DNA from: Oligoflexia bacterium
GTDB lineage: Bacteria; Bdellovibrionota; UBA1018; CAIPTA01
DNA: 64,000 nucleotides
NCBI GenBank assembly: GCA_903867855.1
Contig: CAIPTA010000179.1
Location: forward strand, 3,108 to 67,107
Reading direction: 5' to 3'
The translations under genes and the position numbers were made by a program. Positions 1 to 64,000 of this stretch are shown here, piece after piece. Below the pieces are notes generated by a model. The model made no database searches. It saw only the letters and a program-made list of their open reading frames with translations, and had not been told where the DNA came from. Each line of letters begins with the position of its first letter. Positions within the stretch are counted from its first letter, which is position 1.

Positions 1-630
1 CTCACCCTCTCCCATGTTGGGTTTCAACACTTGCTCATAGACAGCTTTAAACCAAGCCTCTGTGGAGCGCAGTAAATCCGGATTGCCATAATCGTAGAGC
101 TTCGTATTCCAGCCCCATGAGCTTTGCATATGGCTGCTCGGATACTTATTGTGAAACCACTCGGGCACAGCGCCGAAGCCTAAGAATCCCCACTCCGCAT
201 TGATATAGGGGCCGGGACGCACCATGATATGCTTGATTCCGTGTTCCTTAATGAGACGAATGAAGGTAAGCACATCACGAGAGGGATAATCCGGATTGCC
301 ATCGCCATCTTCATCCACAGTGCCGGTGAAATCGAATTTCCCCTCTTGGTACTCATGGAAATCCCAGGGAATATAGAAGCTCACTGCGTTCATCTTGGCT
401 TCTACCACTTTATCTAGGGCGCGATTCCAGAGCTGCATCACCTGATCGCGGGATTGGTTTGGTCCATAGCCGCCACGAAGGCGAAAATACTGCACTTCAG
501 CGCCGAAGATTTGTGGCTGCTTTACCCCATCAATCACCAGCTGATTGTCACTCACGCGCACGCTGCGATCCGCCCAAGCGAATGGCGCGAGCAATAAGCC
601 CACGAAGCTCAATACGAGATATTTTTGCAT
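1..630 (-). CDS. Glycoside hydrolase family 35-like (beta-galactosidase-like) secreted protein, N-terminal 210 aa; C-terminus lies off the left edge
   Basis: Own minus-strand translation from ATG at 630-628. It gives MQKYLVLSFVGLLLAPFAWA (signal peptide), then FGAEVQYFRL, NAVSFYIPWDFHE and VRPGPYINAEWGFLGFGAVPEW. These match conserved GH35 N-terminal barrel motifs. The frame is open to position 1, so it is absent from the ORF track. Confidence 0.6.
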   Translation of the reverse strand, partial: MQKYLVLSFVGLLLAPFAWADRSVRVSDNQLVIDGVKQPQIFGAEVQYFRLRGGYGPNQSRDQVMQLWNRALDKVVEAKMNAVSFYIPWDFHEYQEGKFDFTGTVDEDGDGNPDYPSRDVLTFIRLIKEHGIKHIMVRPGPYINAEWGFLGFGAVPEWFHNKYPSSHMQSSWGWNTKLYDYGNPDLLRSTEAWFKAVYEQVLKPNMGEGE

Positions 631-54842: not shown

Positions 54843-55208
54843 ATGGCAAAGTTCATCGAAAGAAGACGTAGTGCTCGTAAATCCTTCCCTGAGATGCCGT
54901 GGATATTTTCGCTCAGTCTCCAGGAAGCTCCAAAAACGGAACTCCCGATCCGCGTGGACGCAGTAAATATGAGCCGCCACGGGATTAAATTTCAATCGAA
55001 TCATAAAATTCCCCTTTTCACTCCCGTTCACGTTCAACTCTTTGAAAAAAAGACCAAAAGAGACCCACTTAAGATTCAAGCGAAGGTAGTGAGAGTGGAA
55101 GAAGTAGATACGGGCAAGGCAGAGAAGATCTTTGGCATCGCCATTCAGTTTGAAACCATGAGCGATGCGGATAGAGCCACGCTAGGGCTCGCCTTTCCGC
55201 CGCTATAG
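54843..55208 (+). CDS. PilZ domain protein (c-di-GMP receptor type)
   Basis: RRRSAR (RxxxR) and NMSRHG (D/NxSxxG) motifs. The start was set at ATG 54843. Confidence 0.65.
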   Translation: MAKFIERRRSARKSFPEMPWIFSLSLQEAPKTELPIRVDAVNMSRHGIKFQSNHKIPLFTPVHVQLFEKKTKRDPLKIQAKVVRVEEVDTGKAEKIFGIAIQFETMSDADRATLGLAFPPL

Positions 55209-56687
55209 TGGATCTGATCTAAAAAAGAGAGCTTGATATAGATGCTCATCTTGCACTTCTCCTTGAGCCATTAAATCAGAGAAGGTGATGGCCACTCTCG
55301 CTAACGCCACACTGGATCGTCGCGAGTAACCTCTGCTTTGGCAACTATCAGCCCAGAGCGCTTTCGCCGACGCCGACCAAGCCTTTACTTGAAACACTTC
55401 TTCCCCCTGAAGCCGCGAATTTGCCTTACCCTGCCTTGCGATCATAGACGCACGCGCTGTGGTGGCGAGTTCACGAAACTCAGCGGTGCTTGCCTTGCAA
55501 GTTTCCAGCTCTCCGCCTTGATGAAGTGGATAGTAAAGATCAATACGATCGAGAAGCGCTGAAGAAATGCGCCGACGATAATGACGAATCTCTGCCCGAC
55601 TACACTGGCATGCATGACGAGAATCTCCAAGCAAACCACAGGGGCATAGATTCGCCGACGCAAGTAATGTGGTTCTGCAGGGCAATCGATAGTGATAATC
55701 GCCTCGGCGCAATCGCAACTCTCCCTCTTCAATAGGAGTTCGCAGACTCTCTAAGACGCTGCGATCCATCTCTAAAACCTCATCAAGATATAAAACTCCC
55801 CCATGGGAAAGACTCAATTCACCAAATTTATTTTTTCCAAGACCACCCAAAAGATTTCCGCGGCTAATGCTGGCATGGGGCGCTCGGAAGGGACGCTCCC
55901 CCTCCCATGTTTCACCACTCATGGCATAGACTGCGCTGATTTCTTGTCCCTCCTCGACTGTGATGGGCGGTAAAATACTCGGCAAAGCGCTTGCCAAAAA
56001 ACTCTTGCCGACACCACGAGGACCAAAGAGTAGAGAGTGATGTCCACCAGCGGCCACTGCGAGCAACATCTGCTTCGCGCTTGCATGGCCCTCCACTTGT
56101 TCGATTTTAAGATAATTCGGGTTGAGGTTCTTCGATGGACGATGAACTTCTTCTCTCCTTTTCCCTCTGCCAATGCGCCGATTTAAAAAATCCACTGCCT
56201 CTTTCAAGCTTTGAAAGCCACCACCACCATCTAATTGAGCAGATTTCAGCACTTCGCTGTTCTCATAGGGCAAAAGTGCAGACGAAAAGAGCTGTTTTTG
56301 AAAAAAACTTGGCAGTGCAAGAGCCTCTACCACCGGCGAAAGACTCCCATCGAGGCGCAATCCACCTAAAACAGCGATCTTATGGAGGCGTTCAATCGAA
56401 AAAATGCCCTCTGAAGCCAATAATACCATCGCGGCAGCAAAATCGAGTGCCTGACTTCCTTCTCGCAAACATTCGGGCAGCACTTGAATCACTATTTTAC
56501 GTGCTGGAACTCGAAATCCCGAACTTTCGAGCGCAGAAAGCACTCTTTCGCGCATACTTTTTGCCTGTAATTGAGCAATTCCTAAAATCTGTAGTGACGG
56601 AAGATGCAAGCTCTGCCTGCATTCCAGCTCAACAGGCATCGCATTGAGACCAAATTGTTGTAACGATAAAATTTTTGCGTAACTCAT
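55203..56687 (-). CDS. yifB: YifB/ComM-family Mg-chelatase-like AAA+ ATPase
   Basis: 494 aa. Lon-like N-domain, Walker A LFGPRGVGKSFLA, C-terminal Mg-chelatase domain. Last recognisable bacterial gene. Confidence 0.85.
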   Translation of the reverse strand: MSYAKILSLQQFGLNAMPVELECRQSLHLPSLQILGIAQLQAKSMRERVLSALESSGFRVPARKIVIQVLPECLREGSQALDFAAAMVLLASEGIFSIERLHKIAVLGGLRLDGSLSPVVEALALPSFFQKQLFSSALLPYENSEVLKSAQLDGGGGFQSLKEAVDFLNRRIGRGKRREEVHRPSKNLNPNYLKIEQVEGHASAKQMLLAVAAGGHHSLLFGPRGVGKSFLASALPSILPPITVEEGQEISAVYAMSGETWEGERPFRAPHASISRGNLLGGLGKNKFGELSLSHGGVLYLDEVLEMDRSVLESLRTPIEEGELRLRRGDYHYRLPCRTTLLASANLCPCGLLGDSRHACQCSRAEIRHYRRRISSALLDRIDLYYPLHQGGELETCKASTAEFRELATTARASMIARQGKANSRLQGEEVFQVKAWSASAKALWADSCQSRGYSRRSSVALARVAITFSDLMAQGEVQDEHLYQALFFRSDPL

Positions 56688-57471
56688 AGATAAATTTTGT
56701 TCTGCAAAACTTTTTCCACGCGTTTTTTTTCAAATCGGCGATCAATATTGGATTTTTTTTCGCGAAGTATGATGGGTAGTGGTAGTAAATGACCTGGGTG
56801 ACACAGCTGTACATGCCGGCAAAGTCTTGCCTATAGACGATTTTGGCGCAGGGGGGTAGGTCAGAGTGCATGTAGTGCCTGTAGAATGCGTCCAATCCAG
56901 CCTGTACATGGCAATTTTCCACATTCTCTTCGACCCTTGCATCCTCTATGACGTTTGCTACAGAGGCCAGGTGGATGTGGCGATACAGAACACAGAACGA
57001 TGCTGTCATCCGCCTAATGAACGATAGCGAGAGACAACCGGGTTTGTCAGGGTCGAGGCAAGAAATGTCGTCCATCAGAGCCGTGTCGTTCACTTCAAGA
57101 TTGAAGGCGCCAAAGCGGGCCATAAGTGCATCCAGAGCCATGGCAACTGCATCCCAGTCCTCTGAGTATGTGTCCCAGTGGAACTGTAGATCTTCGAATG
57201 AGTCCTTGAGTTGTCGAAGTGTCAGTGACCGGATGGTGAGGCCTCCGTGGACAAATGTTGGCCAGAAAGAGTTGAGGCGTATGTCCATGGTGCTTGGGAA
57301 GAATTTGGCCCGGTATCTGGCGATCAAAAGACCTAGCAGGTGCATTTCATTCAGCATTACGTCGGCCGTGATTGGATCGTGCAGCCTTGTGTTCCAAATC
57401 CACTGATCCCATGCCTCTTTTGGGAGGTTGGCCTCTCCCCTTTCGAAATCCCTATTCCATCTATGCAGCAT
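56629..57471 (-). CDS. Hypothetical protein A of the foreign segment; C-terminus and stop unreliable
   Basis: ATG at 57471. The reading frame runs through the breakpoint and stops only inside the yifB 5' end, so the last ~20-45 codons are probably not native. No family recognised. Confidence 0.4.
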   Translation of the reverse strand: MLHRWNRDFERGEANLPKEAWDQWIWNTRLHDPITADVMLNEMHLLGLLIARYRAKFFPSTMDIRLNSFWPTFVHGGLTIRSLTLRQLKDSFEDLQFHWDTYSEDWDAVAMALDALMARFGAFNLEVNDTALMDDISCLDPDKPGCLSLSFIRRMTASFCVLYRHIHLASVANVIEDARVEENVENCHVQAGLDAFYRHYMHSDLPPCAKIVYRQDFAGMYSCVTQVIYYHYPSYFAKKNPILIADLKKNAWKKFCRTKFIYELRKNFIVTTIWSQCDAC

Positions 57472-57706
57472 TGAACTTCCTGTCGTCGGTCAGCTTCTCT
57501 ATCATGCAGGCGATTTCAGGGAGAACCGAGTTGGCATGTGCTATCTGTGCCACAGCGAGCCTCCACTCAAAGACGTCCGATTTTGGGTAATGGCAAAATT
57601 TGTGATCTTTCAATCCCAGCTCATGAAGTGGTGTGTACTTTATGTCCTTGTTGTCTGGTGGTTTGAAATCAAGCGGTATGCACGATTTCTTGTTATTTCG
57701 GTACAT
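57461..57706 (-). CDS. Hypothetical protein B (81 aa)
   Basis: First ATG at 57706 (the track's GTG at 57715 is discounted). Its TAG overlaps the ATG of ORF A (ATGCTGCATAG). The AT-rich box ends 24 nt upstream. Confidence 0.35.
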   Translation of the reverse strand: MYRNNKKSCIPLDFKPPDNKDIKYTPLHELGLKDHKFCHYPKSDVFEWRLAVAQIAHANSVLPEIACMIEKLTDDRKFNAA

Positions 57707-57708
57707 TG

Positions 57709-57722
57709 TTGCCACGTGGCAA
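57709..57722. promoter_or_regulatory. 14-bp perfect palindrome TTGCCACGTGGCAA (E-box core CACGTG) in a divergent intergenic region
   Basis: Read directly. It lies between the T8A6 tract (57731-57744) and the ATG of ORF B. Confidence 0.4.
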
Positions 57723-57753
57723 TTTGGATGTTTTTTTTAAAAAATAGTAGGTG

Positions 57754-58218
57754 ATGCTGGAGATTTGGGAGGTGATATTGCAGAGAGTAGCCTGTCTCAA
57801 AGGTTCCGTCAATCTGATCCTTGCGCATAAGGGACTCTATGAATCAACCCGATCGGACTTGTCTTTATGGAAGCGATTGGAGGCGCAGGTCGCCTTTTAC
57901 AACTCATACAAGACGTTCAGTCGGCGTCTCAAACATCTCGGGGTTAGGCGGCGATTAATAGCCTGGGTAGCAATGACCAGAGATCCATGTTGTGGCTGTG
58001 GTAATGACTACGCCATGCCACTGTATTACCTTGGTATCAAGCTTTGCACGTATTGTATGCCTGTGTTTACTGTGACCCATGCAGACCTTGAGCGACGGCT
58101 GGGTCCTCGGCGCGCCAGAGCTGTACATTTGCCATTTTCGTGGATTGACATGGGCCATGGAAAGAAGGAAAAGGTTTACCACAGGAAGCATCTGATGCAG
58201 TTGGGATTGCTACTGTAG
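57754..58218 (+). CDS. Hypothetical protein C with F-box-like N-terminus and C-terminal Cys cluster
   Basis: MLEIWEVILQRVACLKGSVNLILAHKGLYESTRSDLSLWKRL fits the F-box hydrophobic pattern (L-x-EIW-x-x-IL ... LWKRL). It also has CCGCG...CTYC. Confidence 0.45.
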   Translation: MLEIWEVILQRVACLKGSVNLILAHKGLYESTRSDLSLWKRLEAQVAFYNSYKTFSRRLKHLGVRRRLIAWVAMTRDPCCGCGNDYAMPLYYLGIKLCTYCMPVFTVTHADLERRLGPRRARAVHLPFSWIDMGHGKKEKVYHRKHLMQLGLLL

Positions 58219-58596
58219 CTTGATTCGTAACTGATGCGATGACACCATTGGATCTCTGAATTGCACCATGGTGGTCTTATGAACTACGACGCACTCCAAA
58301 GGATCTACCACTGCCTTTGGCTTCTGGCTAGGCATGCAATGGACATAGAGTATCAGAAAAGCCATTATTGCAAACAAGTAAAATCCAAATGAGATAAAGA
58401 TTGCTATGTCATTAAAGTTCTGTTGGCCGGTGTGATCGCATAATGTGCCGTCCCATCCACTCTCGCAAATCCAGTCGCATCTCTTATCTCGAATCCATGT
58501 GGGGGTGTAGACGTAGGTAGCATGTGCTGGCAGGGGGTTATCACATTGCATACATATGTCAAACGGTTTCCCTGGTATGGACACCTTTATGCACAT
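58210..58596 (-). CDS. Hypothetical Cys-rich single-TM protein D
   Basis: First ATG at 58596. CxxC pairs, an EGF-like CESGWDGTLC stretch, and the TM helix IAIFISFGFYLFAIMAFLILYV. Confidence 0.4.
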   Translation of the reverse strand: MCIKVSIPGKPFDICMQCDNPLPAHATYVYTPTWIRDKRCDWICESGWDGTLCDHTGQQNFNDIAIFISFGFYLFAIMAFLILYVHCMPSQKPKAVVDPLECVVVHKTTMVQFRDPMVSSHQLRIKLQ

Positions 58597-58643
58597 TTCA
58601 CAGAGTATTCGGAAGGAGAGGATATCCAATCCCCGTGCATAGT

Positions 58644-59042
58644 TTATTGACGTCTTTTTTTACTGACAGTAAAGCATGCCTTGCAGAATCCATTCTGTTG
58701 CATGCAAATCCGCAAGGACAGCTGGATTTTGCAATGTTCACATTGTCGTACACAGTTGGAGCAGAAGAGAGATATCCTGCTGTTTGAATTTCGTTTCATC
58801 TTGAGCCCCTCCTCCTTGAGCTGTAGAAATTTTGATCTGGGCTTCCATATTCCACACAGAGAACAGTTGTCCACTGCCTCGTCATTTTCTACTTGCCATG
58901 AGTACCCGTTCCCCAAGGGAAATTTCTTCCAATAGGTGGGCCAGAGCGAAGGGGGTAGGGAGTCAATGGCTTCAGCGGGTACTGGGGGTGGCATTGCTAG
59001 CAAATAGGGAGAGAGCATATGTGTCTTGCCTGATGACGTCAT
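58644..59042 (-). CDS. Hypothetical zinc-finger-like protein E
   Basis: The ATG lies inside the GATGACGTCATC palindrome. Four CxxC pairs (CSLC, CSNC, CEHC, CKAC). The stop TAA is embedded in AATAAA. Confidence 0.4.
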   Translation of the reverse strand: MTSSGKTHMLSPYLLAMPPPVPAEAIDSLPPSLWPTYWKKFPLGNGYSWQVENDEAVDNCSLCGIWKPRSKFLQLKEEGLKMKRNSNSRISLFCSNCVRQCEHCKIQLSLRICMQQNGFCKACFTVSKKRRQ

Positions 59043-59265
59043 CCTTAATCCTAGTGTTTTCCATGGCTGTAACGCTGCCTGGCATTAATACTATTTTCCG
59101 GCAATTCTTTAGGTTTAGGACCTCAACGCGCCCTTTGCTGTCGAAGTTTGGGTTCACAATCACACAACGTGGTCCTAACTTATCGGTGCTCCATTTGTGC
59201 ATCCCATTTAACCCTCTCAACACTTTTGGCTTGATTGCGACAACTTGGTTTGGTTGCAGCTGCAT
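58972..59265 (-). CDS. Hypothetical protein G (97 aa)
   Basis: First ATG at 59265, with TATATATA 36 nt upstream. Its 3' end overlaps ORF E by 71 nt in another frame. Confidence 0.35.
   Translation of the reverse strand: MQLQPNQVVAIKPKVLRGLNGMHKWSTDKLGPRCVIVNPNFDSKGRVEVLNLKNCRKIVLMPGSVTAMENTRIKDDVIRQDTYALSLFASNATPSTR
59032..59043. promoter_or_regulatory. 12-bp palindrome GATGACGTCATC (CRE/ATF-like TGACGTCA core), copy 1
   Basis: Read directly. It contains the ATG of ORF E and is preceded on that strand by TTAAG. Confidence 0.5.
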
Positions 59266-59341
59266 GGTGTGGGTGATACCCAATCAGGTCTTCCAACTGA
59301 CTATATATAGCCGAACGGAAAAAAAAAGTCATTTTTTTTAA

Positions 59342-59353
59342 GATGACGTCATC
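59342..59353. promoter_or_regulatory. 12-bp palindrome GATGACGTCATC, copy 2
   Basis: Read directly. It lies in the divergent G/F intergenic region next to the A9 and T8 runs and is preceded by TTAAG. Confidence 0.5.
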
Positions 59354-59374
59354 AGAATTTCAACCCTTCGCCTG

Positions 59375-59926
59375 ATGGTGCCCACATGTGCACTGTTTTT
59401 CGTTCAAATGGCACATCCTCTTGTGCTTAGAAGGACATATTACATTCCAAAGGTCTCTTTCGAGCAAGGGCTTAAGCGCATACATACACCAGAAACCATG
59501 CTTTCAAGGCTCCCTGGATATCGCGTGGGCAGGATATATGAACCGCAGCTTGTGAAGAACTCTACCTATTTGACATTCGATCTGGAGCCCATGTCACACC
59601 TCCTGCCTAAGGGCAAAAGGACAGTAACAACATTCTCAGAAAATCGCACAAAAGTTTCTATGATCTACATGAGGAACGATAGGGTAACACTTATGGCTAC
59701 TGTGCGTGTATGTCCTGCCAAGTTTGGACACATTTTGCAGGTCAATTGTACTTTATTCAGCAATAGCCGTTGGTTTTACTCAGGATTGATGGACTTATTC
59801 CCGTATCTTCCCAAATTTCCGGTCAAGATGTCCTTGGCCTGCAAGAAGAAATTTCGCAACTACAGGCTGTTGGCTATGAAGAAAAGCATCGCCTCACAGG
59901 AATCTGATGATGTGTCTTTTGAATAA
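59375..59926 (+). CDS. Hypothetical protein F (183 aa)
   Basis: Clean ATG ORF. The stop TAA is embedded in AATAAA (59922-59927). Confidence 0.45.
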   Translation: MVPTCALFFVQMAHPLVLRRTYYIPKVSFEQGLKRIHTPETMLSRLPGYRVGRIYEPQLVKNSTYLTFDLEPMSHLLPKGKRTVTTFSENRTKVSMIYMRNDRVTLMATVRVCPAKFGHILQVNCTLFSNSRWFYSGLMDLFPYLPKFPVKMSLACKKKFRNYRLLAMKKSIASQESDDVSFE

Positions 59927-60069
59927 AATTCCAATATGTTTTGGCCAAATCCTTTGCAATTCTTGCCTCGTGTTGTGCATCGCGGGTCATCTTCCATTGA
60001 TACCATGACAGGATCAAGAGCAGTATGCATACCATTGGCCAGATCATATCAGATCAGGACCTTGTGATT

Positions 60070-60333
60070 TTATAACTGCTTTCTCCTCCTCAGCTTGTTG
60101 GCCAGGATTAGGAATTTCTCTGCAACTAGTTGTTGTGCCACCTCGTTCCTTTCCCGCAGCTCCCTTATTGAAGTAGACCAGAGTAGGCAGAATAGTAACG
60201 ACGCAGTCACTATGGGCGGGCTGGACAGGTAAAGGGGACGGAACAATAGTGTTAGAACACTTGTCTGAAGCAGCACCCATAGGAACAGCCAATATTGCTC
60301 GTTTCGCTTTTCGTTCATGGTGCGTGACGTCAT
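60070..60333 (-). CDS. Hypothetical small two-TM protein (87 aa)
   Basis: The ATG lies within TGACGTCA and overlaps the stop of the 610-aa ORF (TGATG). It has two hydrophobic helices. Confidence 0.35.
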   Translation of the reverse strand: MTSRTMNEKRNEQYWLFLWVLLQTSVLTLLFRPLYLSSPPIVTASLLFCLLWSTSIRELRERNEVAQQLVAEKFLILANKLRRRKQL

Positions 60334-60336
60334 CAG
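60325..60336. promoter_or_regulatory. TGACGTCATCAG, copy 3 of the CRE-like element
   Basis: Read directly. It contains the ATG of the 87-aa ORF and the stop of the 610-aa ORF. Confidence 0.45.
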
Positions 60337-62165
60337 TACAGCGCTTCCTGTTGTAGTTGCCGCATGGCCCGATCAGTGTCTGCTGGCAGGAGTGTGGGAT
60401 CGACCGGTTTTTCCGGAGGGGGTTTATGGTCTGCCGTGGCGCCTCCATGTGGTCCCAATATGGTGCCACCCCTGGCTATGTTATTAGGCCACCCCCAGGA
60501 GGTTTGATTGTCGTTGGGATATGGATTAGGGCCAGCACTACCTCCATCCCCTTCTAAATAAAATTGTCCAGCCATTTGATTTGGGAGAGTTGGTCGTGTT
60601 GTTGCAACTGGAGCTAGTCCTACTCTTGCAAGCCCTACTCCTCCGCCTGCCGCCGCTCCTACTCCCACCGCTGCTGCTGGTCCCCCTACTCCCGCCGCTG
60701 CCGCTGGTCCTCCTACTCCCACCGCTGCTGCTGGTCCTCCTACTCCCACCGCTGCTGCTGGTCCTCCTACTCCCACCGCTGCTGCTGGTGCCGCTGGTGC
60801 TGGAGGAGACACTGGCCTTACGATTCCCGCTCCTGGGGCTGGTCCGGCTGCAGGAATAATGCCGTCTGCAAACCGTACTCCTCTTCCTCTACCTGCATCT
60901 AACCCCACTCTAGCAGCTCCACCGGCTCCACCAGCACCGTCACCTCTTCCACCAACCGCAGCCCTTGCACCATCTCTAGCGTCACCTCCACCCCTTCCTG
61001 CTCCACCAGCCGCAGCCCTTGCACCATCTCCACCACCACCCCCTCCAGCTCCACCACCACCCCCTCCAGCTCCACCACCACCCCCTCCAGCACCACCACC
61101 ACCCCTCCCTCTTCCTCCTGCTGCCATCATTGGTGAGGGTCCTGCTCTGATACCCATCTGCGCTGCCAATATATCATACAACGTGTTTATTTGCGCCTCG
61201 TTCCTTCTCTGGTAGCTTGTAATGAGTTCCATCACAGGATTCAGATCAAAGGATGGTGGTGCTAAATCTCCAAGATTATCAATCTTTGCATTGATAGCGG
61301 CCAATTCTCGCTGAAATGGAGTGAGGTCCACGGTAGGCATGGCCGCTCCCGCTCCTCCTCCTGCAGATACCGTGATGGAAGACCCTCCTCTGATAGTTGG
61401 TTCTGCCTCTGGCACATCTACTTGTGGTACCACAAATCGCAGTCCGGATAGCCTGGTCACATAATCTGTGGCATCCACTTGATTTAGGGTCTTTACTAGA
61501 GTTGATCGAGCCTCGTGTAACGTTTTCACCAGGGCTGATACATCCACATCTCTGTATGCGTGCTGTATGTCTTTGTTGTATCTTGTTGCATTGAGGCCGT
61601 TGGCATTGCCGTTGCAGCACAGTAGCTGAGTTCCAACTGCTATGGCGAAAGGTGCGTAGAATTCTTCGCTTCGTCTGAGCCGTATGCAGGTCTCTCGCAG
61701 ACCCCAGGAAGATATGGGCAGGAACTCCTTACCTTGCAAGTACTGCACTACCCTGGTCTCTGCCGCCTCGACCTTTGGGTGAAATCCGTGGACGACAAAG
61801 TGACGCATCTGTAGCTTGAGGGATCTAACTATGTCGAACATGGTTTTGCCTAGGCCGTTTGTGCTTCCAGCTTGGGTGAATCGTTTGCCCACATAGTCGC
61901 TCCAGGCCTTGCTCTCGAATCTCTGCAGATCCTTGTCTGTCATCATCGTTTGTGAACTGTTTCGTACCACCCACACTGCCTCGACGTTGCTTACAGAGGC
62001 TCCGCACATCAAGTCCCTGTAACGGATGTCCAGCTGCTCCAGCTCATCGTACTTTTCCATCTCTTTCGCCAGCGAGGTTTGCAGCTCGTGAGATGGCATG
62101 GCTCTGATGTCCACCACTACACCTGTGTCTACCTGGTCGTAGAATCTGCCTCCAATTTGGCTCAT
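60333..62165 (-). CDS. Hypothetical 610-aa protein: ~330-aa globular N-domain plus ~230-aa Gly/Ala/Arg/Pro low-complexity region plus short C-terminal tail
   Basis: First ATG at 62165 (the track's TTG at 62204 is discounted). Longest ORF of the segment. Its repeats are GGGGGGA, DGARAA and GPAAAVGVG. No family recognised. Confidence 0.6.
   Translation of the reverse strand: MSQIGGRFYDQVDTGVVVDIRAMPSHELQTSLAKEMEKYDELEQLDIRYRDLMCGASVSNVEAVWVVRNSSQTMMTDKDLQRFESKAWSDYVGKRFTQAGSTNGLGKTMFDIVRSLKLQMRHFVVHGFHPKVEAAETRVVQYLQGKEFLPISSWGLRETCIRLRRSEEFYAPFAIAVGTQLLCCNGNANGLNATRYNKDIQHAYRDVDVSALVKTLHEARSTLVKTLNQVDATDYVTRLSGLRFVVPQVDVPEAEPTIRGGSSITVSAGGGAGAAMPTVDLTPFQRELAAINAKIDNLGDLAPPSFDLNPVMELITSYQRRNEAQINTLYDILAAQMGIRAGPSPMMAAGGRGRGGGGAGGGGGGAGGGGGGAGGGGGGDGARAAAGGAGRGGGDARDGARAAVGGRGDGAGGAGGAARVGLDAGRGRGVRFADGIIPAAGPAPGAGIVRPVSPPAPAAPAAAVGVGGPAAAVGVGGPAAAVGVGGPAAAAGVGGPAAAVGVGAAAGGGVGLARVGLAPVATTRPTLPNQMAGQFYLEGDGGSAGPNPYPNDNQTSWGWPNNIARGGTILGPHGGATADHKPPPEKPVDPTLLPADTDRAMRQLQQEALY
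60631..60792. repeat. Tandem 27-bp repeat, 5 well-conserved copies plus 1 degenerate copy
   Basis: Unit CCTACTCCCACCGCTGCTGCTGGTCCT at 60658, 60685, 60712, 60739 and 60766. It encodes GPAAAVGVG on the minus strand. Confidence 0.9.
61030..61109. repeat. Tandem 21-bp repeat, ~3.8 copies
   Basis: Unit CCACCACCACCCCCTCCAGCT at 61030, 61051 and 61072. It encodes the GGGGGGA repeats on the minus strand. Confidence 0.9.
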
Positions 62166-62242
62166 GGTGGTTGGATCGTGGTATCTAGTTATACTGGTTA
62201 ACAATAGGAACGCATCTTCCCCTCATGACCCTTCCTGGCTGA

Positions 62243-62252
62243 GATGACGTAC
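62243..62252. promoter_or_regulatory. GATGACGTAC, near-copy of the CRE-like element
   Basis: Read directly. It lies in the divergent region between the 610-aa ORF and ORF J. Confidence 0.35.
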
Positions 62253-62254
62253 CA

Positions 62255-62596
62255 ATGGAGGCCCTCGTGTCGGATGTGCGTGCTCTGACTAGGATGAGAG
62301 AGAGGGGGGGTAGGATACGTTGGATAGGCCCCAACGAGGCGATGGTATTGGATGTTATGGAGTGGTCGGATTCACTGTCGCATGCGCTCAAAGAAAAGCA
62401 TCCGTTTTTATTGATGTGTTTCGAGTCGGCACCCGATTCTCTCAGCGGATTTGGCGTTAGGCTCAAGCTCGACCCCACAGAGGAGATCTGCAGGAGAGTG
62501 GGCATTGCCTGTGTTGTGATTGCCATACTTTCAGCTGTGACTGCCTATTGCTTGGATCTGTTCAGTCGACGACCCTTCTACATCCCCATGCCATGA
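62255..62596 (+). CDS. Hypothetical tail-anchored membrane protein J (113 aa)
   Basis: ATG ORF with a C-terminal TM helix VGIACVVIAILSAVTAYCLDLF. GATGACGTAC lies 3 nt upstream of the ATG. Confidence 0.4.
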   Translation: MEALVSDVRALTRMRERGGRIRWIGPNEAMVLDVMEWSDSLSHALKEKHPFLLMCFESAPDSLSGFGVRLKLDPTEEICRRVGIACVVIAILSAVTAYCLDLFSRRPFYIPMP

Positions 62597-62960
62597 AGTC
62601 TGATATGGTGATGTCATCGTCCTCGTTGATGGACTCGTCCGACTCAGATTGCTCTGGATTCTCCATGTGCTCCTTCCACTTGGTTTCCATGGCTTCGGTC
62701 TCGGCAACGAGGGATCTGGTATCGATGATGGAGCACAGGATTTCGGGGTCGATGTCTTGGTTGTGTTGCTCTGCTATGAGTTGGCAGTATTTGTGCAGCT
62801 CAGTATGCCCATGGATCTCCTCCACCTCTCCTTCCCTCCTTTCCAAATAGATGGGTTTGGGAGGCCAGGTCTTGGTCAGTCGCATCACGTCCCTCGGTTC
62901 CATCCACTGTCCAGGTGGGAGGCGGACTCGTCGGCGTTGGATTTGCAGATGCAGTGCCAT
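62562..62960 (-). CDS. Hypothetical acidic protein K (132 aa)
   Basis: ATG ORF. The AT-rich box and A10 run lie ~50 nt upstream on its strand. Confidence 0.4.
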   Translation of the reverse strand: MALHLQIQRRRVRLPPGQWMEPRDVMRLTKTWPPKPIYLERREGEVEEIHGHTELHKYCQLIAEQHNQDIDPEILCSIIDTRSLVAETEAMETKWKEHMENPEQSESDESINEDDDITISDFMAWGCRRVVD

Positions 62961-63021
62961 GGATTGGGGAGAAGCTGTAGACTTGGCCGCAAGGGTAGGA
63001 TTCAGGTCATTTTTTTTTTAA

Positions 63022-63028
63022 TATAAAA
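63022..63028 (+). promoter_or_regulatory. TATAAAA box preceded by a T10 run
   Basis: 22 nt upstream of ATG 63051. Confidence 0.4.
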
Positions 63029-63050
63029 TCCACAGCACAGGCCATGCAAG

Positions 63051-63164
63051 ATGTGGACTGTACATATCATCTTACTCATTGTCATACCAGCCATAGTTAC
63101 GTTAGTGGTTGACCTGTATGTAGGGTCAAAAGTGACACAGCAACTCCCTCAATATAAAAGGTAA
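63051..63164 (+). CDS. Candidate 37-aa single-TM mini-protein
   Basis: Own translation: MWTVHIILLIVIPAIVTLVVDLYVGSKVTQQLPQYKR. TATAAAA ends 22 nt upstream. Below the track's size cutoff. Confidence 0.3.
   Translation: MWTVHIILLIVIPAIVTLVVDLYVGSKVTQQLPQYKR
63153..63159 (+). promoter_or_regulatory. TATAAAA box
   Basis: 24 nt upstream of ATG 63184 (ORF L). Confidence 0.45.
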
Positions 63165-63183
63165 CTGGGTGAGGACAGCAAGA

Positions 63184-63510
63184 ATGAACTGTCTTCCTTT
63201 CCTTCTGCTCGCCTTGACGACGCTGGTTTCCGCTGATGATGATCACCGCCATGACGATACCGGTTACTATGGGACCCTTGGGATGATTCTCTTGGTCATC
63301 ATCCTGATTTGCTTTGTCGCCGCCGTCAGCTACACTCCCATGCCTTTTGACTATCAGAGCTTCTATGGCGGTGGAAGAAACGAATGTAAGCCACAGGAGA
63401 TCAACGTTCGCATCCTTCGTGGCGATTCTCTGCCCATGAGCGACTGTAAACACCAGACATTGGTGCAAGGTCCCGATGGGAATATTTACCTTACAGATGC
63501 GGGGGTTTAA
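63184..63510 (+). CDS. Hypothetical type I membrane protein L (108 aa)
   Basis: ATG 63184 gives a signal peptide MNCLPFLLLALTTLVSA, then an acidic/His stretch, then the TM helix LGMILLVIILICFVAAV. The stop is embedded in AATAAA. Confidence 0.5.
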   Translation: MNCLPFLLLALTTLVSADDDHRHDDTGYYGTLGMILLVIILICFVAAVSYTPMPFDYQSFYGGGRNECKPQEINVRILRGDSLPMSDCKHQTLVQGPDGNIYLTDAGV

Positions 63511-63544
63511 TAAAGTATTTCCATTGCATTTGAAAGTAATACCC

Positions 63545-63551
63545 TATAAAG
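63545..63551 (+). promoter_or_regulatory. TATAAAG box
   Basis: 24 nt upstream of ATG 63576 (ORF M). Confidence 0.4.
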
Positions 63552-63575
63552 GTATACCAGCCGTCTAGTGTCACG

Positions 63576-63752
63576 ATGGATCACGACCTAGCTGAAGCGT
63601 TGCGTAAAGAGATTCAACGAACCGAGAAAGATTTAGCGTTGATAGCATCTAGGATGGACCCATTGGAGAGGGAGATGGCAGAGAAGGAGTTCAACGCCAA
63701 GGTAGAGCGTGCCCGGCAGCGGCGGAGGGAGAAAGGGGGGGTGGGCCGTTGA
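63576..63752 (+). CDS. Candidate 58-aa coiled-coil protein M
   Basis: Own translation: MDHDLAEALRKEIQRTEKDLALIASRMDPLEREMAEKEFNAKVERARQRRREKGGVGR. TATAAAG ends 24 nt upstream. It ends just after a G8 run. Confidence 0.3.
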   Translation: MDHDLAEALRKEIQRTEKDLALIASRMDPLEREMAEKEFNAKVERARQRRREKGGVGR

Positions 63753-63755
63753 CAC

Positions 63756-63762
63756 TATTTAA
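63756..63762 (+). promoter_or_regulatory. TATTTAA box
   Basis: 25 nt upstream of ATG 63788 (ORF N). Confidence 0.35.
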
Positions 63763-63787
63763 GAAAGGTGAATACTTTGGCTCAGCG

Positions 63788-64000
63788 ATGCTCAGACAAT
63801 TTGACATAGAGGAACACGCCGCTCATAAGGTGGCGGCTAAGGACTCTGTTGTCACTCAGGCGCAAAGCTCCAGTAATATTTTGGATATCGACCCTGAAGC
63901 GAACGATTGCCACACCTTCTTCGGAAACAGGAAGCCCTTTGGTTCGCAGAAGATGCACTACACGGCATCTGCCTTGTCCTTTGTAACCAAAGCATTGGTC
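63788..64000 (+). CDS. Partial hypothetical ORF N, open to the right edge
   Basis: ATG 63788 (MLRQFDIEEHAAHKV...) gives 71 codons with no stop. TATTTAA ends 25 nt upstream. Confidence 0.3.
   Translation, partial: MLRQFDIEEHAAHKVAAKDSVVTQAQSSSNILDIDPEANDCHTFFGNRKPFGSQKMHYTASALSFVTKALV

What the first reader, a model, noticed from the sequence alone, without database searches (positions are those of the whole stretch)
56629..56800. Breakpoint maps to a ~80-bp window with two T8 homopolymers, and one ORF reads across it
- The yifB start codon is at 56687-56685.
- Immediately beyond it lie CGCGTTTTTTTTC (T8 at 56733-56740) and GGATTTTTTTTCGCG (T8 at 56753-56760).
- A/T runs of 8 nt or more recur in the intergenic regions of the right-hand segment (57731, 59319, 59332, 63010). 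They are rare in the bacterial part.
- I therefore place the join between 56688 and ~56730-56770.
- ORF A (ATG 57471) has no stop of its own. It continues through this window and terminates only at 56629, inside the yifB 5' coding region. That is what a truncated gene fused to unrelated sequence would look like.
- Low-complexity homopolymers are classic places for mis-joins.
Basis: seen in the sequence. Interest (0 to 1): 0.6.

Follow-up and report, generated by a model that had tools for sequence, protein, structure and literature searches.

The report
Chimeric contig: bacterium joined to virus
The breakpoint is real but artefactual: at base 56766/56767 a lake bacterium's chromosome was wrongly joined, in one metagenome assembly, to a piece of an unrelated large virus-like genome, so the ORF that reads across it is a spurious fusion.

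Summary
The window is a contig of a metagenome-assembled genome (C179).

- **Left of the join:** ordinary bacterial chromosome up to 56766, ending with an intact comM/yifB gene and its AT-rich upstream region. Both T8 runs lie in this bacterial part.
- **Right of the join:** from 56767 to the contig end, 8.2 kb of a gene-dense, eukaryote-virus-like genome.

Four results fix the join at 56766/56767. A 6-nt GTATGA (56767-56772) is common to both true paths.

1. Homology of ORF A to its roughly 320-aa family stops at residue 235 (…HYPSY). The 45-residue tail is noise.
2. In four sequencing runs the viral DNA continues left of 56767 with a different sequence, which translates to …PSYERKMQIPLAK. 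That is the family consensus.
3. Another contig of the same genome (C170) begins with the same 36 bp (56737-56772) and runs on into sppA and rpsA. Those genes follow comM in all five relatives examined.
4. The viral DNA is no deeper right of the join than left of it. It also occurs at 124-520x in runs where the comM-side bacterial sequence laid (55800-56723) has no contig cover.

The junction words occur in only one library. The likely cause is a chimeric fragment bridging a coverage gap. This is an artefact of low interest.

The parts
55203..56687 (-). Intact comM/yifB gene (494 aa). It is the last bacterial gene before the join.
   Evidence: Pfam ChlI, Mg_chelatase and Mg_chelatase_C. NCBIfam TIGR00368 YifB family, aligned 8-490. 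Homologues at the syntenic place in relatives.
56688..56766 (.). Genuine bacterial intergenic sequence upstream of comM. It holds both T8 runs (56723-56730 and 56753-56760).
   Evidence: It is contiguous with comM in Logan contig record 1 of run X1. Its right part is identical to the start of the bacterial contig C170.
56737..56772 (.). 36-bp stretch identical to C170:17-52. This is the overlap that marks C170 (sppA, rpsA) as the true continuation of the chromosome.
   Evidence: The only other copy in the 3.36-Mb assembly sits 16 nt from a contig end. C170 genes follow comM in 5 of 5 relatives. Depth in X1 is equal, 12.3 against 12.4.
56767..56772 (.). GTATGA, a 6-nt microhomology shared by the bacterial path and the native viral path. 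The join cannot be placed more exactly than this.
   Evidence: Three-way comparison of C179, C170 and the native viral continuation.
56629..56766 (-). Spurious tail of ORF A (residues 236-280 plus the stop). It is a chance open frame through bacterial intergenic DNA and the comM 5' end.
   Evidence: The family profile gives -1.8 bits for the tail, and 92 of 500 shuffles score as well. The native sequence reads ERKMQIPLAK here instead.
56767..57471 (-). Genuine N-terminal 235 residues of ORF A. ORF A belongs to a conserved family, of unknown function, found on large gene-dense virus-like contigs. About 80 C-terminal residues are missing here.
   Evidence: 110 homologues, mostly of about 300-350 aa. 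The profile aligns residues 1-235 with high confidence. No second copy or C-terminal piece occurs in the assembly. The AlphaFold2 model has pLDDT 84 and is mostly helical, with no Foldseek match.
56767..64000 (.). Foreign, eukaryote-virus-like segment. It runs on to the contig end, 8,201 bp in all.
   Evidence: It has no Pfam families. It is collinear with locus L017, part of a large virus-like contig. It is present at 124-520x in runs X3/X4, where the bacterial stretch laid (55800-56723) has no cover, and there it continues natively for 4 kb or more to the left.

Best explanation
C179 is a chimeric contig. The bacterial chromosome really runs from comM, through 56688-56772, into contig C170, which carries a small Lys-rich ORF, sppA and rpsA. 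The 8.2 kb to the right of 56766 belongs to a separate genome: a large DNA virus-like element of a eukaryote, present in the same lake sample at about the same depth.

Shown: the true bacterial path has no cover in X1's Logan contigs over the AT-rich, homopolymer-rich comM-sppA spacer. Shown: words spanning the false join exist in that one library.

Inferred:
- That gap in cover left an open contig end.
- A few chimeric molecules or reads, joined at a 6-nt GTATGA microhomology, supplied the only link onward.
- The assembler followed that link.

ORF A is therefore a viral gene cut after codon 235. It reads on by chance through 45 stop-free codons of bacterial DNA.
For: 1. ORF A homology ends at residue 235, window 56767.
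2. In Logan contigs of X1 (record 3), X2, X3 and X4 the viral DNA continues left of 56767 as ...GGGATTTGCATTTTTCTCTC. This translates to PSY-ERKMQIPLAK, which matches the family consensus PSYERKKQLSLEE.
3. C170:17-52 is identical to 56737-56772 and then diverges. In all 5 relatives examined, comM is directly followed by homologues of C170 genes. The sppA homologue (53-68% identity) is there in all five, the small ORF C170:387-776 in three, and rpsA (79-84% identity) within the fetched stretch in three.
4. Depth in X1 is 12.4 for the bacterium, 12.3 for C170, 11.8 for the virus left of the join and 10.5 right of it. There is no added depth on the side supposedly attached to the bacterium.
5. 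X3 and X4 hold the viral DNA at 520x and 124x, with zero cover of the bacterial side laid (55800-56723). X2 holds the virus at 23x, passing through natively.
6. The junction appears only in X1, the probable source sample.
7. X1 contigs do not cover C170:53-279.
8. There is no other viral piece in the assembly.
Against: - Junction-spanning 31-mers are present in an independent assembly (Logan) of run X1. The join is therefore in reads, not invented by the assembler alone, and a rare real molecule cannot be excluded from contig-level data.
- The first 16 nt of C170 differ from 56721-56736. They share CAAATCG and then have a 5-nt indel. I read this as a strain variant, but that is not shown.
- Per-base read and mate-pair support could not be inspected, because only contigs of these runs are held.
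Confidence: 0.93

Rival explanations
1. The junction is real but rare. In a small minority of cells of this bacterium, a fragment of the viral (or viral host) DNA was taken up and joined by illegitimate recombination at the GTATGA microhomology upstream of comM.
For: Junction words exist in the reads of X1: Logan record 1 runs from comM to 56796. The 6-nt microhomology is typical of illegitimate joining, both in vivo and in vitro.
Against: - There is no excess depth of the viral DNA right of the join, 10.5 against 11.8. At most a small fraction of the 12.4x bacterial population could carry it.
- The empty-site path exists and is syntenic with relatives.
- The viral gene is cut mid-domain.
- No second junction, integrase or target duplication was seen.
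- In-vitro chimeras are far more common than such transfer events. This rests on general knowledge and was not tested here.
Confidence: 0.04
2. The right-hand segment is a genuine strain-variable bacterial genomic island or prophage inserted next to comM, and C170 represents the strain without it.
For: comM is a known target of genomic islands in some bacteria; this rests on general knowledge, for example the AbaR islands of Acinetobacter. C170's first 16 nt suggest that a second strain variant exists at this locus.
Against: - comM is intact, and the join lies 79 nt upstream of it.
- The segment occurs at 124-520x where the bacterial sequence laid has no cover, and there it continues natively across the join.
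- Its relatives sit on 50-200 kb gene-dense contigs that carry heliorhodopsin, Snf7, Tcp11, ankyrin and a eukaryote-type protein kinase.
- ORF A is truncated exactly at the join.
- There is no depth excess.
Confidence: 0.02
3. Purely computational mis-join: the assembler merged two paths at a shared k-mer, with no chimeric read behind it.
For: The break coincides with a low-complexity region and a contig end. C170 starts 52 nt before the divergence point.
Against: The two true paths share only 6 nt, too few for any usual k. An independent k=31 assembly of X1 contains 24 junction-specific words, so reads must carry the join.
Confidence: 0.01

Closest known systems
Inter-genome chimeric contigs in metagenome-assembled genomes (misassembly or contamination of MAGs)
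   Same: - Two unrelated genomes of similar depth are joined at a point where one has a coverage gap.
- Each side has a different, well-supported continuation elsewhere.
- A gene is truncated at the join and read through as a fusion ORF.
- The contig was binned according to its majority (bacterial) part.
   Different: The partner is a eukaryote-virus-like genome, not another bacterium. The two sides share only 6 nt, so a chimeric read rather than a shared repeat is needed to explain the join.
Genomic islands targeting comM (for example AbaR/Tn6022-type islands; from general knowledge)
   Same: Foreign DNA lies adjacent to a comM/yifB gene.
   Different: Such islands interrupt comM and bring transposition or integration genes and target-site duplications. 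Here comM is intact, no such genes or repeats are present, and the foreign DNA has its own native continuation across the join.
Mirusviricota, freshwater lineages (PMC12768974, PMC10132985), as the possible source of the foreign DNA
   Same: - Gene-dense contigs of 50-200 kb from lake metagenomes, with almost no Pfam families.
- A relative's contig encodes a heliorhodopsin, which PMC12768974 lists among functions found in most mirusvirus genomes.
- That contig also carries eukaryote-type genes (Snf7, Tcp11, ankyrin).
   Different: No hallmark gene (HK97-fold capsid protein, portal, terminase, triplex) was seen on the pieces I could read. Membership is a lead only; a giant virus or another unclassified large DNA virus fits as well.

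Membership tests
Chimeric (mis-joined) contig | Each side of the join has a different continuation in independent data. | tested here: met
   The viral side continues natively in X1 record 3, X2, X3 and X4. The bacterial side continues in C170.
Chimeric (mis-joined) contig | Gene order in relatives supports the alternative neighbour, not the assembled one. | tested here: met
   In 5 of 5 relatives comM is directly followed by homologues of C170 genes: sppA in all five, rpsA in the three where the fetched stretch reaches it.
Chimeric (mis-joined) contig | Depth does not add up as it would for one molecule. | tested here: met
   In X1 the depths are: bacterium 12.4, virus left of the join 11.8, virus right of the join 10.5. 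These are contig means, so the test is approximate.
Chimeric (mis-joined) contig | Few or discordant reads and read pairs across the join. | not testable with these tools
   Only Logan contigs of the runs are held, not raw reads.
comM-targeting genomic island | Insertion interrupts comM and is flanked by target duplications. | tested here: not met
   comM is full length. The join is 79 nt upstream of it. The contig ends inside the foreign DNA, so only one junction exists.
comM-targeting genomic island | Carries an integrase or transposition genes. | tested here: not met
   The eight longest ORFs to the right of ORF A, between 57461 and 62960, have no Pfam family above threshold.
YifB/ComM Mg-chelatase-like AAA ATPase (gene 55203-56687) | ChlI N-terminal domain, Mg_chelatase AAA domain and C-terminal domain, over the full length. 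| tested here: met
   PF13541, PF01078 and PF13335. TIGR00368 aligned 8-490 at 302 bits, below the curated cut-off of 362.
Mirusviricota (source of the foreign DNA) | HK97-fold major capsid protein and herpesvirus-like virion module on the same genome. | not tested
   Only 8.2 kb here, and 57.8 kb or less of any relative, could be read. No hallmark was seen.
Mirusviricota (source of the foreign DNA) | Accessory functions found in most genomes, such as heliorhodopsin. | tested here: inconclusive
   Heliorhodopsin (E 3.8e-16) is on the relative's contig G031:C3, not in the window. It is not specific to this phylum.

The most novel reading that the evidence does not exclude
The junction is a real molecule: a rare cell lineage of this lake bacterium acquired 8 kb or more of DNA from a large eukaryotic virus by illegitimate recombination at a 6-nt microhomology next to comM, a gene linked to natural transformation. 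That would be a snapshot of virus-to-bacterium gene transfer caught before selection acted on it.
Probability: 0.04. Interest if true: 0.7.

Novelty: not a real feature. Interest (0 to 1): 0.08.

Why it matters
The main value is quality control.

- This MAG is the species representative in a reference taxonomy set, yet it carries 8.2 kb of eukaryote-virus-like DNA.
- It also carries a fusion protein that does not exist in nature (ORF A, 280 aa). That protein is already present in the public protein collection as called (first row).
- Any analysis of horizontal transfer, of "bacterial" homologues of this viral family, or of comM-adjacent islands would be misled by it.

The case also shows a recipe for exposing such joins without raw reads. 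It combines the end point of profile homology, contig-end overlaps within the assembly, synteny in relatives, and Logan contigs from other runs.

A second prokaryote MAG (G031) holds a whole 57.8-kb contig of the same virus-like kind, so the problem is not unique to this genome.

Tried and rejected
- **E. coli search.** Megablast of 55000-64000 against the E. coli genomes gave no match.
- **Pfam on the foreign DNA.** Pfam on 8 foreign ORFs of the window, and on 10 large ORFs of relatives' contigs, gave nothing usable.
- **DNA polymerase B on the relative's contig.** I searched for PF00136 in G031; there was no hit.
- **Does ORF A homology continue past residue 235?** This needed testing because MAFFT and BLAST extend alignments to residues 250-269, and HMMER extends to 250 at low posterior probability. 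I rejected it: the tail alone scores -1.8 bits and is no better than shuffles, and the native sequence fits the consensus instead.
- **Is the 36-mer a dispersed repeat?** Rejected: it has only two copies in the assembly.
- **Missing C-terminus or other viral pieces.** I looked for both elsewhere in the MAG and found none.
- **Fold of ORF A residues 1-235.** The model is confident (pLDDT 84), but no Foldseek match in PDB or BFVD has E below 0.4. Function remains unknown.
- **A shared k-mer as the cause of the join.** Rejected: the two true paths share only 6 nt.

Full report
**What the window is.** The window is bases 3108-67107 of contig C179 (68,074 bp). C179 belongs to a 3.36-Mb, 202-contig, 86%-complete assembly, that is, a metagenome-assembled genome. 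Up to about 56.7 kb it is densely packed with ordinary bacterial genes: pgk/tpi, gap, yhaM, an acetyltransferase, and comM/yifB.

**Checking the observation.**
- comM/yifB is ORF 55203-56687(-), with its ATG at 56687-56685. It has the ChlI + Mg_chelatase + Mg_chelatase_C architecture.
- ORF A is 56629-57471(-), 280 aa, and overlaps the first 59 nt of comM.
- T8 runs lie at 56723-56730 and 56753-56760.
- The four A/T runs cited in the right-hand part are all there.
- Such runs are about ten times denser on the right: 4 in 7.2 kb, against 3 in 56.8 kb on the left. Two of those three left-hand runs are the T8s upstream of comM.

**Where ORF A stops being a real protein.** ORF A belongs to a large family known only from metagenomes: 110 hits, mostly of about 300-350 aa, with no Pfam domain.
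- A profile of 95 homologues aligns residues 1-235 (…VIYYHYPSY) with high posterior probability, then trails off.
- Scored alone, the tail 236-280 gets -1.8 bits, and 92 of 500 shuffles do as well.
- Residue 235 ends at window base 56767.
- About 80 C-terminal residues of the family are missing. They are not encoded anywhere else in the assembly.

**What other sequencing runs show.** Logan contigs of four runs were laid on 55800-58300.
- In X2 (a second lake sample of the same study; virus 23x, bacterium about 3x), the right-hand DNA does not turn into comM at 56767. The same is true in X3 and X4 (another study; 520x and 124x, with no cover at all of the bacterial side laid) and in one contig of X1.
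- Instead it continues for about 4 kb where the contig end is recorded (X2, X3, X4), as …TTTGGCCAACGGGATTTGCATTTTTCTCTC|GTATGATGGG….
- Read on the minus strand, this gives …HYPSY-ERKMQIPLAK, which is the family consensus (…PSYERKKQLSLEE). This is the native gene.
- Only X1 has a contig (record 1, depth 12.4) that runs from comM across the join to 56796. X1 holds 97% of the window's words and is probably the source sample.
- In X1 the viral DNA has depth 11.8 left of the join and 10.5 right of it. The 12.4x bacterial population therefore adds nothing measurable to the right-hand side.

**Where the bacterial chromosome really goes.** The only other match to the junction region in the whole assembly is at the extreme start of contig C170.
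- C170:17-52 is identical to 56737-56772. C170 then diverges (…GTATGA|ATTTCAAACACG…) into an AT-rich spacer, a 25-aa Lys-rich ORF with a good Shine-Dalgarno site, sppA and rpsA.
- I fetched the comM loci of five relatives from the same family and order. I compared them with the ORFs of the window's last 10 kb of bacterial DNA and of C170's first 12 kb.
- In all five, the window's gene order ending in comM is directly followed by homologues of C170's genes. The sppA homologue (53-68% identity) is present in all five. The rpsA homologue (79-84%) falls within the fetched stretch in three, and in one relative further C170 genes follow.
- C170 has the same depth in X1 as comM, 12.3 against 12.4.
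- The chromosome therefore runs comM → 56772 → C170:53.
- X1's Logan contigs do not cover C170:53-279 at all. This coverage gap in a homopolymer-rich spacer explains why the bacterial contig was open-ended here.

**The join.** The native viral path and the true bacterial path share only GTATGA (56767-56772).
- The join is therefore at 56766/56767, ambiguous by 6 nt. It is 6 nt to the right of the second T8.
- Six nucleotides cannot merge two paths in a de Bruijn graph.
- Twenty-four junction-specific 31-mers are present in an independent assembly of X1.
- So a few reads must carry the join. The simplest source is an in-vitro chimeric fragment, from ligation or template switching at a microhomology. 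That step is inferred, not shown.
- A rare real molecule cannot be excluded from contig-level data. The depth figures limit it to a small minority of cells at most.

**What the foreign DNA is.**
- Its ORFs have no Pfam families.
- The 8.2 kb is collinear, gene by gene, with L017, a stretch of a large gene-dense contig that carries the ORF A homologue P0009.
- Relatives of ORF A sit on contigs of up to about 100 kb.
- One 57.8-kb relative contig encodes a heliorhodopsin, Snf7, Tcp11, ankyrin repeats and an FkbM methyltransferase. Another has a eukaryote-type protein kinase next door.
- This is the profile of a large DNA virus of a unicellular eukaryote.
- Freshwater mirusviruses are a reasonable lead, because heliorhodopsin is among the functions found in most of their genomes (PMC12768974). 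I saw no hallmark gene, so I do not file it there.
- ORF A residues 1-235 fold confidently (pLDDT 84) into a mostly helical domain, with no structural match in PDB or BFVD.

**Verdict.** The feature is an assembly or library artefact, not biology. The homopolymers are bacterial and mattered only indirectly. No other viral piece is in the bin. C179 should be cut at 56766/56767. Interest is low.

Noticed in passing
L025-L027 (G031:C3, 57,858 bp; NCBI record CAYQOJ010000003.1 of GCA_964419105.1): Another prokaryote species-representative MAG (3.6 Mb) contains a whole 57.8-kb contig of the same virus-like kind. It carries an ORF A homologue (P0078), heliorhodopsin, Snf7, Tcp11, ankyrin repeats and an FkbM methyltransferase. 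This is probably a mis-binned eukaryotic-virus contig.
   Followed up: partly
window 56767-57471(-) and homologues P0003-P0111: The ORF A family has more than 100 metagenome-only members, mostly of about 300-350 aa, and 18 invariant residues in a 49-sequence alignment. It has a confident, mostly helical predicted fold with no match in PDB or BFVD. It is a conserved gene of unknown function in an uncharacterised lineage of large virus-like elements.
   Followed up: partly
window 56777/56778: In run X1 a second low-depth branch (55-nt contig, depth 3.1) joins the viral DNA at 56778. It is preceded by CAGACGGAGGGGGCGGGGAAAAGAA, which does not translate like the family. The 41-nt contig 56767-56807 has depth only 4.7, against 10.5-11.8 in the flanks. 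Two odd junctions lie within 11 nt of each other; this is unexplained.
   Followed up: no
L015 (C170) 1-16: The first 16 nt of C170 (GGAACCAAATCGTGGA) do not match window 56721-56736. They share CAAATCG, followed by a 5-nt insertion (TGGAG). They are not in X1's Logan contigs. This may be a co-occurring strain variant of the comM upstream region, or a second bad contig end.
   Followed up: partly
L015 (C170) 248-325 (+): A 25-aa Lys-rich ORF (MAAKKKATKKKATTKKKATKKKAKK) with an AGGAGG Shine-Dalgarno site lies in the comM-sppA spacer. Contigs of other organisms in X2 and X5 match this stretch at 90-95% identity, so it may be a conserved small basic protein.
   Followed up: no
window 57471/57472: The variant of the viral DNA in runs X3 and X4 (about 98-99% identical) has a 10-nt insertion, TAGTTTAGTA, directly upstream of the ORF A start codon.
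   Followed up: no
window 60333-62204(-): A 623-aa viral ORF has a long Gly/Ala/Arg- and Pro/Ala-rich repeat region (GC 60%, strong skew). Its N-terminal 300 aa are 41% identical to the 792-aa protein of L017. Contigs of X2 and X4 appear to end around 60.7 kb, judging from their lengths and the part laid, probably because of these repeats.
   Followed up: no
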